The translations under genes and the position numbers were made by a program. DNA of 64,000 nucleotides from Escherichia coli. Its GTDB lineage: Bacteria; Pseudomonadota; Gammaproteobacteria; Enterobacterales; Enterobacteriaceae. Numbering within the stretch: the first letter of the stretch is position 1; the number at the start of each line of letters is the position of its first letter. Below the pieces are notes generated by a model that was not told the DNA's origin, searched no databases, and saw only the letters and a program-made list of their open reading frames with translations. The stretch lies in NCBI RefSeq assembly GCF_003334315.1, contig NZ_QOWR01000008.1; one strand, given 5' to 3'. Positions 26,332 through 29,909 of this stretch are shown here, piece by piece.

Positions 26332-27321
26332 TTACTTACCGCCTAAACCTTTTTTCTCCAGTTCTTCTTTAAAGTTGTCACGCGTGATCAGTACCACGTC
26401 GGTAACTTCGGTAAATTTTGGCGGTTCAACGTCTTTTGCTACCCAGTTGTAAAGCATTTCGCTGGATTTATAGCCATGTACGTCCGGGCTTGGCAGCAGG
26501 GAACCGTAGAAGCCGGTTGCCTGTGCTTTAGACAGTTCGCTCACCGCATCCACACCGTTAATACCAATACCGATGATATCGGCTGCTTTAAAGCCCTGAC
26601 CTTCGGTTGCACGTACGCCGCCAAGTACGGTGCTGTCGTTCATACCGACGATCAGCCAATGTTTAACTTCCGGATGTTGAACCAGCATTGAGTTGGCAGC
26701 GTCAAATGCCCCCGGGATGTCGTTAGATTTGGTAGGTACCTGATAAATTTGTTTTTCCGGGAATCCGGCCGCTTTCAGTGCGTCCATAGAACCCGTTGTA
26801 CGGCGGCGGGCGGTATCCAGTTCGTTGGCGGTAATCGCCATCACCGCGCTTTCTTTGACATCCCAACCCCGTTTCTGCATCTCTTTATACAGTTCCTGGC
26901 CCTGACGTTCGCCAATTTTAGTCGCCGCCATCATCACCAGCGGAACGGTATCCATTGGCTTACCTTTGGCGTTAACAAACTGGTCATCCACGGCAATGAC
27001 TTTCATATCGTAGCCACGCGCTTTCGCGACGATGGCAGAGCCGAGTTTGGGGTCCGGAGTACAAATAACGAAACCTTTTGCGCCACTGGCTGCCAGGCTG
27101 TCGATCGCGTTCAATGTTTTTTCGCCATCCGGCACGGCAATCTTAATAACCTCAAACCCTAAATCCTTCCCGGCTTTATCGGCAAACTTCCATTCGGTCT
27201 GGAACCACGGCTCTTCCGGTTGCTTCACCAGGAAACCGAGCTTCAGGTTCTCCGCCATAGCGGATTGTGACATAACGGCTGCCAGACCAATGGCTGCCAG
27301 GGCTTTAGTAAATTTGTGCAT
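26332..27321 (-). CDS. araF: L-arabinose-binding periplasmic protein
   Basis: ORF 26332-27372; start moved to MHKFTKALAAIGLAAVMSQSAMA (329 aa) with signal peptide. Confidence 0.93.
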   Translation of the reverse strand: MHKFTKALAAIGLAAVMSQSAMAENLKLGFLVKQPEEPWFQTEWKFADKAGKDLGFEVIKIAVPDGEKTLNAIDSLAASGAKGFVICTPDPKLGSAIVAKARGYDMKVIAVDDQFVNAKGKPMDTVPLVMMAATKIGERQGQELYKEMQKRGWDVKESAVMAITANELDTARRRTTGSMDALKAAGFPEKQIYQVPTKSNDIPGAFDAANSMLVQHPEVKHWLIVGMNDSTVLGGVRATEGQGFKAADIIGIGINGVDAVSELSKAQATGFYGSLLPSPDVHGYKSSEMLYNWVAKDVEPPKFTEVTDVVLITRDNFKEELEKKGLGGK

Positions 27322-28117
27322 GGTTCTCTCCAGCTTTAGTGTCGTTTTGTGTAGGGCAAAAACGAATGACATTCGTTAAATTAATCGGAAAACAAAGCAT
27401 TACCTTTTAACTAAAAGATAAGTGACCGTGTTGACATAGTTTTAGCGAGAAATTAATTCTCCATAGGAGAGCAATATCACATCGCAGAATTACAGTGAGA
27501 ACGTGCATAAATTTAGCGGGAAAAGACATAAGGAAAAGCCAATTTGTCAGACAAATTGTTGAATGCACAGCAGATTAATCCATAAGATTAGCCTGGAAAT
27601 CCTTGTTGTCTTTGGTACCCATGCGGGATGTCTTCTTTTTAACCAGTCAATAGGCCGCATTACCTGGCGTTAAGTTTTTGAAATGGTGTAATAACCGCAA
27701 CTCAAAGATGTGGAAAATGCACGTCATTCATTTCGTCATTAATTATCACTGTGCTCATTAATTAACAGAACACGTATAATGAGAGCCATCTCGCAAAAAT
27801 GAAAAAACGTTTTATAAAATCATCACTTCATCATGAATTCAAATTCATTGATTAATATCAACAAGATACAAAAAGCACTATCATTAAAATTCATTGCAGT
27901 TACATTGATTTCATCAATGAAATGTAAAAATATATAAACTTGATGATTTAAGCATTTTCTTATGCCCGTTCAGACGTTATTCTTATTTCAGATCATCGTC
28001 AGAATTGACTCCACGATCACATTTCGGACCGGCAGAAAGGAATTATTCTGCAAACAGTAATTATGGTGTTTTGATTTATCTTGCACCTCTCCACTTCTGG
28101 ATATAAGGATATTAGGT

Positions 28118-28621
28118 ATGGCAACCGCTGGAATGCTTCTCAAACTCAACTCTCAAATGAACCGCGAGTTTTACGCATCCAATCTCTACCTTCACCTGAG
28201 TAACTGGTGTTCTGAACAGAGTCTGAACGGCACCGCCACTTTCCTTCGCGCCCAGGCACAGAGTAATGTGACCCAAATGATGCGCATGTTTAACTTTATG
28301 AAGAGTGTCGGCGCTACCCCCATCGTTAAAGCCATTGATGTTCCCGGTGAAAAACTGAACTCTCTGGAAGAACTGTTCCAAAAAACGATGGAAGAATACG
28401 AGCAACGTTCTAGTACGTTGGCACAGTTAGCCGATGAAGCGAAAGAACTGAATGATGATTCAACCGTCAATTTCCTGCGCGATCTGGAAAAAGAACAGCA
28501 GCATGATGGTCTGTTGCTGCAAACCATTCTTGATGAAGTGCGCAGTGCGAAACTTGCGGGTATGTGCCCTGTGCAGACCGACCAACATGTTCTGAATGTC
28601 GTGTCACACCAGCTGCATTGA
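28118..28621 (+). CDS. ftnB: Ferritin-like protein FtnB
   Basis: 167-aa ORF matching recalled FtnB (YecI). Confidence 0.93.
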
Positions 28622-28663
28622 TCATCATCGGCGCTAATGCATTGCGCCGATGAAGGTTTTGAG

Positions 28664-28701
28664 AAACCGCTGCCTCATCTGTTTGAAGCAGCGGTTTTTT
28701 T
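28664..28701 (+). terminator. Rho-independent terminator of ftnB
   Basis: Hairpin aaaccgctgc/gcagcggttt followed by a T-run. Confidence 0.7.
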
Positions 28702-28951
28702 AATGGGATTCACCCTGTGGGGTAAACTTGAGTTCAATAAGCGCGATGGCTTTTTGGATTGCCCGCATGGTGACCGGGTCTGCGGCGGCGGGATGGTTAG
28801 TAAAGTCGATATTCTTCAGCTGACTGGACATTTTTTCACGAACTTCAACGGGCGCGATTACATCGAGAACATCCAGAATTTGTTTGATAACCAACTGGCA
28901 AGCAACCACATCAGAAACCAGTTCCTGATCGGCATTCAGCGGCTGGGACAT
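28700..28951 (-). CDS. yecJ: YecJ, DUF2766 family protein
   Basis: 83-aa ORF matching recalled YecJ. Confidence 0.9.
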
Positions 28952-29036
28952 CGTAAACTCCTGATAGCATTTTGAAAGCCGTTATAGTAGCGGCTTCACA
29001 TCTTCAGCGATAGTCACATCCACCGTCATCAGGACA

Positions 29037-29065
29037 CAAAAAAACCTGCCGGAGCAGGTTTTTTG
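29037..29065 (-). terminator. Rho-independent terminator downstream of azuC
   Basis: Hairpin acctgc/gcaggt flanked by an A-run and a T-run (bidirectional architecture). Confidence 0.6.
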
Positions 29066-29152
29066 TTATCGGAACATATTGCCTGGCGGTACGTCTTTGA
29101 ACGTCTTGCAATAGTTATTGAACATACTTTTCAGTATTTTGCGCAGTTTCAT
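29066..29152 (-). CDS. azuC: Small membrane-associated protein AzuC (28 aa), encoded by the dual-function AzuCR (IsrB) RNA
   Basis: Minus strand translates to MKLRKILKSMFNNYCKTFKDVPPGNMFR then stop, identical to recalled AzuC; below the ORF-track size cut-off. Confidence 0.9.
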   Translation of the reverse strand: MKLRKILKSMFNNYCKTFKDVPPGNMFR

Positions 29153-29414
29153 CGCGGCACTCCGACCATTTGTTATACAGGTGTTATTGTCTTTGCACTT
29201 ATAATATGACAACCATCACAAAAATCAATCTTTATGTGATGTGAATCACATAAATACCCCTTTAATGTTATAAAAATGATAATCAAAAAGCAGCTACCCC
29301 ATTTCTGACACCTACAGATGGCAAGAAATAGCGCCTGCCAGGCGTCTTTTCCGGCCATTGTCGCAGCGCTGTAACGCGTAAAATAGTGCTTTCTTTTACT
29401 CTTCTGGCTGGACC

Positions 29415-29738
29415 ATGAGACTTCTGATTCTGACTCTTTCATTAATAACGCTGGCGGGGTGTACGGTTACTCGCCAGGCCCATGTGAGCGAAGTTGACGC
29501 GGCAACAGGTATTGTACGGTTGGTTTATGACCAGGCTTTTTTGCAGCATGCCCGTACCGATCGTTATGTCAGTCGCGGGATCGCCGATCGCGCATGCCAG
29601 CAGGAAGGCTATACCCACGCTATCCCCTTTGGTCAGCCAGTAGGCAACTGTAGCCTTTTTGCGGGTTCCTTATGTTTAAATACGGAATTCACTTTGTCAT
29701 ATCAGTGCCATCATTCCGCCTTCCCTGTCTTTCTCTAA
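29415..29738 (+). CDS. yecR: Lipoprotein YecR
   Basis: 107-aa ORF with lipobox (LAGC); matches recalled YecR. Confidence 0.92.
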   Translation: MRLLILTLSLITLAGCTVTRQAHVSEVDAATGIVRLVYDQAFLQHARTDRYVSRGIADRACQQEGYTHAIPFGQPVGNCSLFAGSLCLNTEFTLSYQCHHSAFPVFL

Positions 29739-29909
29739 ATGTTTTAATCAGCAAGGGGGATCTTCGCTGATTAAATAAATAGCGGTAATGCGTTTTATTC
29801 CCATTCGTATTTTTAATAAATGAAGTTTATATTTTACCTTTTGCAAATAATAAAATAACAAATTATAGTGACGCCACAGCAACAAATATAACCTTTGTGG
29901 AGCACTATC

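What the first reader, a model, noticed from the sequence alone, without database searches (positions are those of the whole stretch)
27322..28117. Long AT-rich araF-ftnB intergenic region with a recurrent TCATTGA-like motif and a small dyad
This 796-bp non-coding interval is unusually long and AT-rich. It carries a 7-bp inverted repeat (cattgat-ttc-atcaatg at 27903-27919) and additional copies of tcattga-like sequence nearby (about 27845 and 27891). The motif is not an obvious match to the AraC, CRP or Fur consensus as I recall them. It could be a binding site for a nucleoid-associated or uncharacterised regulator, or nothing more than AT-rich chance similarity.
Basis: seen in the sequence. 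Interest (0 to 1): 0.2.

Follow-up and report, generated by a model that had tools for sequence, protein, structure and literature searches.

The report
Known FNR box upstream of ftnB
The repeated "TCATTGA" motif is the half-site of the oxygen-sensing regulator FNR, sitting in the already well-mapped, H-NS-coated control region between the E. coli araF and ftnB genes, so the finding is real but ordinary.

Summary
The interval 27322-28117 is the 796-bp, 35% GC araF-ftnB intergenic region of E. coli, and the dyad CATTGAT-ttc-ATCAATG is at 27903-27919. The motif occurs more often than shuffles of the region give.

TTGAT/ATCAA is the FNR half-site.
- The copy "near 27845" belongs to a perfect FNR consensus, TTGATTAATATCAA (27848-27861).
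- Myers et al. 2013 already list this site as a high-scoring "silent" FNR site inside a 1.9-kb H-NS-bound region.
- Other work reports FNR binding at ftnB.
- Its left arm is lost in most other Escherichia, and the whole dyad is absent outside the genus.

The dyad ends 4 bp before the published, widely conserved CpxR box (27924-27938). That box lies upstream of the ftnB start site (~27990) and the CsrA-controlled leader. The left 290 bp is the araFGH control region.

The interval is long because two control regions flank about 290 bp of fast-evolving AT-rich DNA. Citrobacter and Salmonella have a DJ-1-family gene at that position.

Verdict: already known, low interest. The dyad itself has no demonstrated function.

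The parts
27322..27610 (-). araFGH control region (promoter, 5' UTR and upstream activator sites)
   Evidence: 77-80% identical to Citrobacter over window 27201-27607. Blocks conserved across 36 Enterobacteriaceae loci. Mean 86% identity among Escherichia species. The assignment to araFGH control rests on position and on my own knowledge of the AraC/CRP literature; the primary papers were not held.
27514..27605 (+). Cluster of three AraC-like half-sites (TAGCGGGAAAAGACATA 27514-30, CAGCAGATTAATCCATA 27568-84, TAGCCTGGAAATCCTTG 27589-605). The last two are 21 bp apart, like araI1-I2.
   Evidence: Pattern TAGC-N7-TCCATA with up to 2 mismatches: 3 of 42 window matches fall in these 92 bp, all on one strand. 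The blocks are conserved in other genera. Inference from consensus only.
27540..27558 (.). Perfect 9-1-9 palindrome CAATTTGTC-A-GACAAATTG between the AraC-like sites; no regulator assigned
   Evidence: The core TTGTCAGACAA is conserved in Citrobacter, Lelliottia, Silvania, Leclercia and in the Salmonella remnant.
27611..27847 (.). Fast-evolving AT-rich spacer specific to Escherichia. It contains one conserved island: TCATTAATTATCA 27736-48, TCATTAATTAACA 27755-67 and TATAAT 27775-80.
   Evidence: Only 50-55% identity to non-coli Escherichia over 27608-27899, against 90% for the ftnB coding sequence. No homology to Citrobacter or Salmonella by blastn or nhmmer. The island is kept in all 7 Escherichia sequences. 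Lies inside the published H-NS ChIP-chip region.
27848..27861 (.). Perfect FNR consensus box TTGATTAATATCAA, centred about -135.5 from the mapped ftnB start.
   Evidence: The only zero-mismatch match in the 64 kb. Appears in 0.7% of shuffles. Listed in Myers 2013 Table S6 at 1984679, score 15.49, no FNR ChIP-seq peak, H-NS enriched. FNR ChIP-qPCR positive at ftnB. In vitro binding 'further upstream than usual', cited from Partridge 2007.
27885..27890 (+). TAAAAT, a possible -10 element that would place the FNR box at -41.5/-42.5 of a hypothetical upstream start near 27896-27898
   Evidence: Sequence reading only. No start-site evidence. The only sigma-70 ChIP-seq peak found in the interval maps to about 27989. 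Not conserved in other Escherichia.
27903..27919 (.).
   Evidence: Not found by the FNR pattern with up to 1 mismatch. Invariant in the 5 full-length E. coli sequences aligned. The 61-mer containing it is exact in 4175 of 5426 genomes. The left arm is lost in 4 of 6 other Escherichia, and the dyad is absent outside the genus.
27924..27938 (+). CpxR box GTAAA-AATAT-ATAAA, centred about -59
   Evidence: Pattern match with 1 mismatch. Listed as the known ftnB CpxR site, credited to the mSystems paper's supplementary reference 3, with a position that maps exactly here. GTAAA-N5-RTAAA is conserved in Escherichia, Citrobacter, Salmonella, Lelliottia, Silvania and Leclercia. ftnB responds to Cpx.
27949..27963 (+). 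Most conserved promoter block, TAAG(C/G)ATTTTCTTAT, covering the -35 region of the main promoter. Together with AACTT at 27937-41 it fits a sigma-E-type AACTT-N16-TCTTA.
   Evidence: Near-invariant across genera. A sigma-E promoter for ftnB is reported in the literature. The placement here is my inference. It also resembles the RcsB box TN(G/A)GAN4TC(T/C)NA with one mismatch.
27978..27992 (+). -10 element TATTCT (27978-83; TATGCT in most relatives) and the ftnB transcription start at 27990-27992
   Evidence: The SP6 primer for the leader starts at GATCATCGTCAG, and the fusion spans '+1 to +152'. The sigma-70 ChIP-seq peak at 1984820 maps to about 27989. The -10 is conserved.
27990..28117 (+). 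ftnB 5' leader (about 128 nt) with four GGA motifs (28026-28, 28039-41, 28099-101, 28107-09); published footprints cover three of the four. Hairpin 28032-37/28046-51 presents a GGA in its loop.
   Evidence: CsrA footprints and translational repression are published. Hairpin predicted, with a compensatory G-C to A-U change in Silvania and Leclercia. 96.8% mean identity among Escherichia, above the coding sequence at 89.8%.

Best explanation
The interval is the joined control DNA of two divergent units.

Layout:
- The left ~290 bp is the araFGH promoter with its AraC-type sites.
- The right ~200 bp is the ftnB promoter and leader: CpxR box at about -59, -10 TATTCT, start at ~27990, and a 128-nt leader on which CsrA blocks translation.
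- Between them lie ~290 bp of fast-evolving, 27-30% GC DNA. This DNA, and the whole interval, is coated by H-NS.

The motif. The recurring 'TCATTGA' is the FNR half-site TTGAT/ATCAA plus flanking bases.
- One copy forms a perfect FNR box (27848-27861), a site already in the literature.
It is therefore not a canonical FNR target.
- The dyad most likely arose by local duplication in AT-rich DNA. CATTGATT recurs 57 bp apart and AAATTCATTG 46 bp apart.
- The dyad has no established function.

How it most likely works (inferred, not shown). Under oxygen limitation, [4Fe-4S]-FNR binds the box wherever H-NS allows access. From -135.5 it is too far for the usual class I or class II contact with RNA polymerase at the mapped promoter. 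It would therefore act by opposing H-NS silencing or by helping other activators, while CpxR-P activates from -59 and CsrA sets translation.

Shown: the sequence elements, their positions and their conservation. Taken from the literature: H-NS occupancy, FNR binding, the CpxR site, CsrA footprints and the start site. Inferred: the anti-silencing role of FNR and the non-function of the dyad.
For: - Perfect FNR consensus, unique in the 64 kb, appearing in 0.7% of shuffles.
- The same 14-mer at the matching MG1655 coordinate is in Myers 2013 Table S6, with an H-NS flag and no FNR peak.
- The H-NS region 27116-28999 covers it.
- FNR ChIP-qPCR is positive at ftnB.
[quoted passage not shown] This fits -135.5.
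- In Salmonella, ftnB is FNR-activated and H-NS-repressed.
- The dyad fails the FNR pattern and is N3.
- Conservation falls off in the order: leader, then CpxR box and core promoter, then dyad right arm, then dyad left arm and FNR box.
- The CpxR site is published at exactly 27924-38.
- The start site follows from primers and the sigma-70 peak.
- Direct repeats D4 and D9 support local duplication.
Against: - Myers 2013 found no FNR ChIP peak here in wild type, and ftnB/araF are absent from their delta-hns/delta-stpA peak table. In vivo FNR binding is therefore condition-dependent or disputed.
- The box is polymorphic. The 33-mer with TTGAT is exact in 2958 of 5426 E. coli genomes, the TCGAT version in 756, and the rest differ elsewhere in the 33-mer. 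The box is degenerate in other Escherichia. This argues against strong selection.
- The dyad is invariant in the E. coli sequences I aligned and is partly kept in E. albertii, so a function is not excluded.
- I could not read Partridge 2007 or Yamamoto & Ishihama 2006 directly; they are used through citing papers.
Confidence: 0.75

Rival explanations
1. The FNR box drives its own class II promoter. With FNR centred at -41.5/-42.5, the -10 would be TAAAAT (27885-90) and transcription would start near 27896-27898. This would give a ~220-nt ftnB leader under anaerobiosis once H-NS is displaced. The dyad would then lie at +7 to +23, either as a 5' RNA hairpin or as a roadblock operator.
For: - The geometry fits: box centre 27854.5 and TAAAAT 27885-90.
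- Myers 2013 note that many sites unmasked without H-NS lie near -41.5.
- ftnB uses more than one start site depending on medium.
Against: - The only sigma-70 ChIP-seq peak found in the interval maps to ~27989, aerobically and anaerobically.
- The two reported start sites are ~66 bp apart with the second 'downstream', which fits 27990 and ~28056, not 27897.
- TAAAAT is not conserved in other Escherichia.
- The consensus promoter scan found nothing.
Confidence: 0.12
2. The dyad CATTGAT-N3-ATCAATG is a real operator for a dimeric regulator other than FNR, known or uncharacterised. It would act next to the CpxR box at about -79.
For: - Perfect 7-bp arms (extendable to 10 bp at 90%).
- Invariant in the E. 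coli sequences aligned, and the surrounding 61-mer is exact in 77% of genomes.
- An imperfect version is kept in E. albertii.
- The position is typical of an upstream activator or co-regulator.
Against: - The left arm is replaced in four of six other Escherichia, and the dyad is absent in Citrobacter and Salmonella, where the adjacent CpxR box and promoter are kept.
- The conserved right arm can be read as flanking sequence of the CpxR site.
- 40% of shuffles contain some 7-bp dyad.
- No consensus I compared from memory fits (NarL, NsrR, IscR, Fur, Zur, ArgR, TyrR).
Confidence: 0.1
3. Everything, including the perfect FNR box, is chance similarity and slippage in neutrally drifting AT-rich DNA and has no regulatory role.
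For: - The box lies in the fastest-evolving part of the interval (50-55% identity).
- It is polymorphic within E. coli.
- Genome-scale ChIP saw no FNR there.
Against: - A perfect 10-of-10 consensus appears in 0.7% of shuffles.
- Independent reports of FNR binding and of O2-dependent ftnB expression exist.
- FNR-like sites with an intact ATCAA half occur at similar distances in several Citrobacter (TTCATACATATCAA, TCGATCTACATCAA).
Confidence: 0.1

Closest known systems
FNR operator sites, specifically the 'silent' high-scoring FNR sites masked by H-NS (Myers et al. 2013, PLoS Genet, PMC3688515)
   Same: The 27848-27861 box is identical to the consensus TTGAT-N4-ATCAA and is literally one of the sites in their Table S6 (araF/ftnB, score 15.49, H-NS ChIP-chip enriched, no FNR peak).
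   Different: It lies ~135 bp upstream of the mapped start, not at -41.5 or -61.5. Other studies (ChIP-qPCR, and in vitro binding as cited) report FNR binding. The neighbouring dyad has N3 spacing and is not in any catalogue I could search.
ftnA promoter: Fe2+-Fur activates by reversing H-NS silencing (Nandal et al. 2010, cited)
   Same: A ferritin gene in the same neighbourhood, AT-rich upstream DNA bound by H-NS, and an activator site too far upstream for direct polymerase contact. This is the model I infer for FNR at ftnB.
   Different: The regulator is FNR rather than Fur, and anti-silencing has not been demonstrated for ftnB in E. coli. In Salmonella the Fur effect on ftnB was proposed to be indirect, through hns expression.
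CpxR box GTAAA-N5-GTAAA at Cpx-regulon promoters (degP, cpxP, yccA, ftnB)
   Same: 27924-27938 is the published ftnB CpxR site. It is conserved across genera and in tandem-repeat form.
   Different: The second repeat is ATAAA in Escherichia. Some E. coli strains (S65EC, Ecol_542) have a 2-bp AT deletion in the spacer.
CsrA-repressed leaders with GGA in hairpin loops and over the Shine-Dalgarno sequence
   Same: The ftnB leader has three footprinted CsrA sites, and the hairpin and Shine-Dalgarno GGA motifs are conserved.
   Different: None of note. This part is simply the published system.

Membership tests
FNR binding site (CRP/FNR-family operator) | 14-bp inverted repeat TTGAT-N4-ATCAA | tested here: met
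   27848-27861 TTGATTAATATCAA has 0 mismatches and is the only such site in the window.
   27905-27917 is TTGAT-TTC-ATCAA (N3). In either 14-bp register only about 6 of 10 consensus positions match, and the pattern search with up to 1 mismatch does not find it.
FNR binding site (CRP/FNR-family operator) | Occupancy by FNR in vivo or in vitro | not testable with these tools
   The literature conflicts. ChIP-qPCR is positive and in vitro binding is cited. There is no ChIP-seq or ChIP-chip peak in wild type or delta-hns/delta-stpA in glucose minimal medium.
FNR binding site (CRP/FNR-family operator) | Position compatible with activation (about -41.5 for class II, or -61.5 to -92.5 for class I) relative to a mapped start | tested here: not met
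   Centre 27854.5 against the start at 27990-92 gives about -135.5. A hypothetical start near 27897 would fit -41.5 but has no support.
FNR binding site (CRP/FNR-family operator) | Conservation of the site in orthologous promoters | tested here: inconclusive
   The 33-mer with the perfect box is exact in 2958 of 5426 E. coli genomes, and the TCGAT allele 33-mer in 756. One mismatch in Escherichia sp. MOD1. The left half is lost in five other Escherichia. One-mismatch FNR-like sites occur at similar distance in some Citrobacter.
CpxR box | Tandem GTAAA-N5-GTAAA upstream of a Cpx-responsive promoter | tested here: met
   GTAAAAATATATAAA at 27924-38, 1 mismatch. Conserved as GTAAA-N5-RTAAA in six genera. 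Published as the ftnB site. Expression data.
H-NS-silenced AT-rich region | AT-rich tract with H-NS occupancy | tested here: met
   34.7% GC overall and 27.2% in the core. The occupancy comes from published ChIP-chip: an extended 1883-bp region that maps to 27116-28999, flagged in Table S6.
CsrA-regulated mRNA leader | GGA motifs in hairpin loops and over the Shine-Dalgarno sequence, with CsrA footprints | tested here: met
   Four GGA motifs and the hairpin 28032-37/28046-51 with GGA in its loop, conserved with covariation. The footprints are published.
AraC operator (araI-type direct repeat) | Two 17-bp half-sites TAGC-N7-TCCATA in direct repeat, 21 bp apart | tested here: inconclusive
   27568-84 (1 mismatch) and 27589-605 (2 mismatches) are 21 bp apart on one strand, and 27514-30 has 2 mismatches. 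They are conserved. The window-wide count of this loose pattern equals the chance expectation (42 against 40), and the primary footprinting papers were not available.

The most novel reading that the evidence does not exclude
The N3-spaced palindrome CATTGAT-ttc-ATCAATG could be a genuine operator. It might bind a regulator other than FNR, or act as a mis-spaced decoy half-site pair that works with the perfect FNR box 56.5 bp upstream. Alternatively, the FNR box could fire a cryptic, H-NS-masked class II promoter whose transcript begins just before the dyad. Either reading would add an undescribed Escherichia-specific oxygen input to ftnB.
Probability: 0.1. Interest if true: 0.3.

Novelty: already known. 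Interest (0 to 1): 0.12.

Why it matters
It matters little beyond bookkeeping. ftnB encodes a ferritin-like protein linked in Salmonella to Fe-S cluster repair, and its control by O2 (FNR), envelope stress (CpxR, sigma-E), H-NS and CsrA is already documented.

The useful results here are three:
- The first-stage motif is explained as FNR half-sites.
- The unusual length of the interval is explained: two control regions plus a fast-evolving AT-rich filler, where relatives carry a DJ-1-family gene.
- The site illustrates the published puzzle of perfect-consensus FNR boxes that genome-scale ChIP finds unoccupied under H-NS.

If the dyad or a cryptic FNR-dependent promoter proved functional, it would refine one promoter's model, not open a new field.

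Tried and rejected
- Structured RNA: the Rfam scan of 26800-29800 at E<=1 found nothing in the interval.
- Consensus sigma-70 promoters: none in 27250-28200. Two weak terminator-like hairpins were not followed.
- Small protein: the 34-aa ORF 27833-27937 spans the FNR box and the dyad, but it is interrupted early in E. whittamii and its sequence is not kept in other Escherichia.
- Pseudogene remnant of the DJ-1-family gene found in Citrobacter and Salmonella: no tblastn, blastn or nhmmer signal in 27608-27900.
- ArcA site: TGTTAATTAA on the minus strand at 27758-67 resembles the old ArcA consensus, but ftnB and araF are absent from the supplementary tables of Park 2013.
- Dyad as an FNR site: fails on spacing.
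- Dyad compared from memory with the NarL heptamer, NsrR, IscR, Fur, Zur, TyrR, ArgR, IHF and marbox consensuses. None fits convincingly. Two single partial matches were noted in the flanks only: an ARG-box-like 7-2-7 at 27833-48, and IHF-like WATCAA-N4-TTR over the right half of the FNR box.
- Unusual leader structure: MFE z-score 0.15, not special.
- Papers not held: Partridge 2007, Thomason 2015 start-site tables, Johnson & Schleif 2000. The pNAD-seq supplement is also not held.
- One literature search (ftnB/yecI) was swamped by unrelated 'yeci' strings.
- The 61-mer allele count was confounded by linked SNPs and was replaced by 33-mer counts.

Full report
**Where we are.** The window around the finding is the E. 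coli K-12-type locus araH-araG-araF (minus strand), then ftnB, yecJ, azuCR, yecR and ftnA. The window coordinate equals the MG1655 coordinate minus 1,958,807. The interval 27322-28117 is exactly the 796-bp araF-ftnB intergenic region. MG1655 annotates nothing in it, and the RefSeq rows listed show no feature under the match. It is present at 80% or more coverage in 5413 of 5426 complete E. coli genomes.

**Check of the observation.** GC is 34.7%, against 50.8% for the window, and 27.2% over 27700-27960. The dyad CATTGAT-ttc-ATCAATG is at 27903-27919, and the other copies are at 27845 (exact) and 27891 (one mismatch).
- Against dinucleotide-preserving shuffles, CATTGAT occurs 3 times against 0.36 expected (0.2% of shuffles reach this).
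- TCATTGA occurs 2 times against 0.36 (5%).
- One 7-bp dyad is unremarkable on its own, since 40% of shuffles have one. The region nevertheless holds five distinct perfect dyads.

The motif was chosen after the fact, so these figures are optimistic.

**What the motif is.** The core of the motif, TTGAT/ATCAA, is the FNR half-site.
- The copy "near 27845" is the left half of TTGATTAATATCAA (27848-27861). This is a perfect match to TTGAT-N4-ATCAA and the only one in 64 kb. It appears in 0.7% of shuffled versions of the interval.
It has the same half-sites one base pair too close, so in any 14-bp register only one arm fits.
- In the whole window, TTGAT-N(0-8)-ATCAA occurs three times, two of them here, 57 bp apart.
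- Short direct repeats (CATTGATT 57 bp apart, AAATTCATTG 46 bp apart) suggest that the second palindrome arose by local duplication.

**What is already published about FNR and H-NS here.**
- Table S6 of Myers et al. 2013 lists this very 14-mer at 1984679 (U00096.2), "araF/ftnB", score 15.49. It has no FNR ChIP-seq peak and is flagged "H-NS ChIP-chip". It is one of their "silent" FNR sites.
- Their anaerobic H-NS region 1983947-1985830 maps to window 27116-28999 and so covers the whole interval.
- Their IHF region maps to 28080-29135, and their only sigma-70 peak in the interval maps to about 27989.
- ftnB and araF are not in their table of FNR peaks gained in delta-hns/delta-stpA.
- Against that, Lemmens et al. 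2009 validated FNR binding at ftnB by ChIP-qPCR.
- Troxell et al. 2011 summarise Partridge et al. 2007 as showing three things. E. coli ftnB depends strongly on low O2. FNR binds its promoter. [quoted passage not shown]
- In Salmonella, ftnB is FNR-activated and H-NS-bound and repressed.

**The ftnB promoter and leader.**
- The known CpxR site of ftnB, GTAAAAATATATAAA, lies 180 bp before the ATG in the mSystems supplement. That is window 27924-27938, starting 4 bp after the dyad's right arm.
- The CsrA paper's SP6 primer starts the leader at GATCATCGTCAG and describes "+1 to +152". This puts the start at 27990-27992 and agrees with the sigma-70 peak.
- The -10 is then TATTCT (27978-83), which is TATGCT in most relatives.
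- Relative to this start, the CpxR box is centred at about -59, the dyad at about -79 and the FNR box at about -135.5.
- The 128-nt leader carries the four GGA motifs described for CsrA. One sits in the loop of the hairpin 28032-37/28046-51, and one covers the Shine-Dalgarno sequence.
- A sigma-E promoter and a second, medium-dependent start ~66 bp away are also reported.

**Conservation.** I fetched 38 orthologous loci from Enterobacteriaceae.

| Segment | Window coordinates | Mean identity to the window, six other Escherichia |
|---|---|---|
| araF coding sequence, 5' end | 27000-27321 | 91% |
| araFGH control side | 27322-27607 | 86% |
| Middle | 27608-27899 | 57% (50-55% for all but the closest) |
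| Dyad, CpxR box and core promoter | 27900-27989 | 84% |
| ftnB leader | 27990-28117 | 97% |
| ftnB coding sequence | 28118-28621 | 90% |

- Across genera, blastn retains only 27201-27607 and about 27902-28113.
- The CpxR box, the TAAG(G/C)ATTTTCTTAT block, the -10 and the CsrA hairpin persist in Citrobacter, Salmonella, Lelliottia, Silvania and Leclercia.
- The dyad's right arm is kept only in Escherichia. Its left arm is kept only in E. coli, in the closest relative, and imperfectly in E. albertii.
- The FNR box is perfect only in E. coli, and there it is polymorphic. The 33-mer with TTGAT is exact in 2958 of 5426 genomes and the TCGAT version in 756. Three divergent strains I aligned all carry TCGAT.
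- Some Citrobacter have one-mismatch FNR-like sites at a similar distance.

**Why the interval is long.** In Citrobacter and Salmonella, a 185-aa DJ-1-family gene lies on the minus strand between araF (or its remnant) and ftnB. It scores 122 bits against TIGR01383, just under that model's cut-off. Escherichia has instead about 290 bp of unrelated AT-rich DNA, with no detectable remnant of the gene. The interval is thus two full control regions plus a filler.

**Explanation and rivals.**
- Best explanation (0.75). The motif copies are FNR half-site sequences. The box at 27848-61 is the known, H-NS-embedded FNR site of ftnB. From -135.5 it can only act indirectly, most plausibly by opposing H-NS silencing, as Fur does at ftnA. 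The dyad is a mis-spaced, probably duplicated copy without established function, abutting the CpxR box.
- Cryptic class II promoter fired by the box (0.12). The -10 would be TAAAAT 27885-90 and the start about 27897. The single sigma-70 peak and the lack of conservation weaken this.
- The dyad as an operator for another regulator (0.10). Its phylogenetic pattern weakens this.
- Pure chance for everything (0.10). The perfection of the box and the reported binding weaken this.

**Comparison with the known, and verdict.**
- The box is a member of the FNR-site family by sequence. It does not meet the usual positional criterion, and its occupancy is disputed in the literature.
- The dyad fails the family's spacing criterion.
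- The CpxR box, the H-NS region and the CsrA leader are the published elements.
- Nothing here lies outside known kinds of bacterial promoter architecture. Novelty: already known. Interest: about 0.1.

Noticed in passing
window 27990-28117: The ftnB 5' leader is more conserved among Escherichia species (mean 96.8%; 99.2% to E. albertii) than the ftnB coding sequence (89.8%) or the araF coding sequence (91.1%). Published CsrA sites explain part of this. The predicted fold is not unusually stable (z = 0.15).
   Followed up: partly
window 27540-27558: Perfect 9-1-9 palindrome CAATTTGTC-A-GACAAATTG between AraC-like half-site pairs upstream of araFGH. Its core TTGTCAGACAA is conserved in Citrobacter, Lelliottia, Silvania, Leclercia and even in the Salmonella remnant. 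I could assign no regulator.
   Followed up: partly
window 27736-27787: The only conserved island in the fast-evolving middle: tandem TCATTAATTATCA / TCATTAATTAACA (19 bp apart) followed by TATAAT (27775-80), kept in all seven Escherichia sequences. It resembles the old ArcA consensus on the minus strand, but ftnB and araF are absent from the ArcA ChIP supplement searched. Function unknown.
   Followed up: partly
L008 1927-2484, L009 1889-2446, L016 1887-2444: Citrobacter and Salmonella carry a 185-aa DJ-1-family gene (TIGR01383, 122 bits, just below its cut-off) on the minus strand between araF and ftnB. Escherichia lacks it and shows no remnant.
   Followed up: yes
L009 1618-1827 (Salmonella enterica subsp. 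diarizonae); also L012: No araF-homologous DNA was found upstream of ftnB in either Salmonella locus. L009 still keeps recognisable pieces of the araFGH promoter region, including AraC-like blocks and the palindrome core, next to a truncated ABC-permease ORF. L012 was not examined for these remnants.
   Followed up: partly
window 27833-27848: Perfect 7-2-7 palindrome ATGAATT-ca-AATTCAT directly abutting the FNR box. It resembles a single ARG box (from memory). It is not conserved outside E. coli.
   Followed up: no
window 27949-27963: The most conserved promoter block, TAAG(G/C)ATTTTCTTAT, resembles the RcsB box TN(G/A)GAN4TC(T/C)NA with one mismatch. ftnB changed expression in Salmonella RcsB-variant RNA-seq (PMC7913699). 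It also fits a sigma-E-type -10 (TCTTA) 16 bp after AACTT.
   Followed up: partly
L041 and L043 (E. coli S65EC, Ecol_542), equivalent to window 27929-27934: A 2-bp AT deletion in the ATATAT spacer of the CpxR box changes the spacing between its two pentamers in some E. coli strains.
   Followed up: no
L043 2249-3000 (E. coli Ecol_542): An IS1 element with an associated deletion has removed araFGH, otsB and part of otsA, and everything left of about window 27915. ftnB is left with only its CpxR box, core promoter and leader.
   Followed up: partly
window 29006-29119: Weak sub-threshold Rfam matches (STnc370 at 33 bits on the plus strand, rsmX at 23 bits on the minus strand) overlap the azuCR (IsrB) locus. 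No Rfam family reached threshold for AzuR itself.
   Followed up: no
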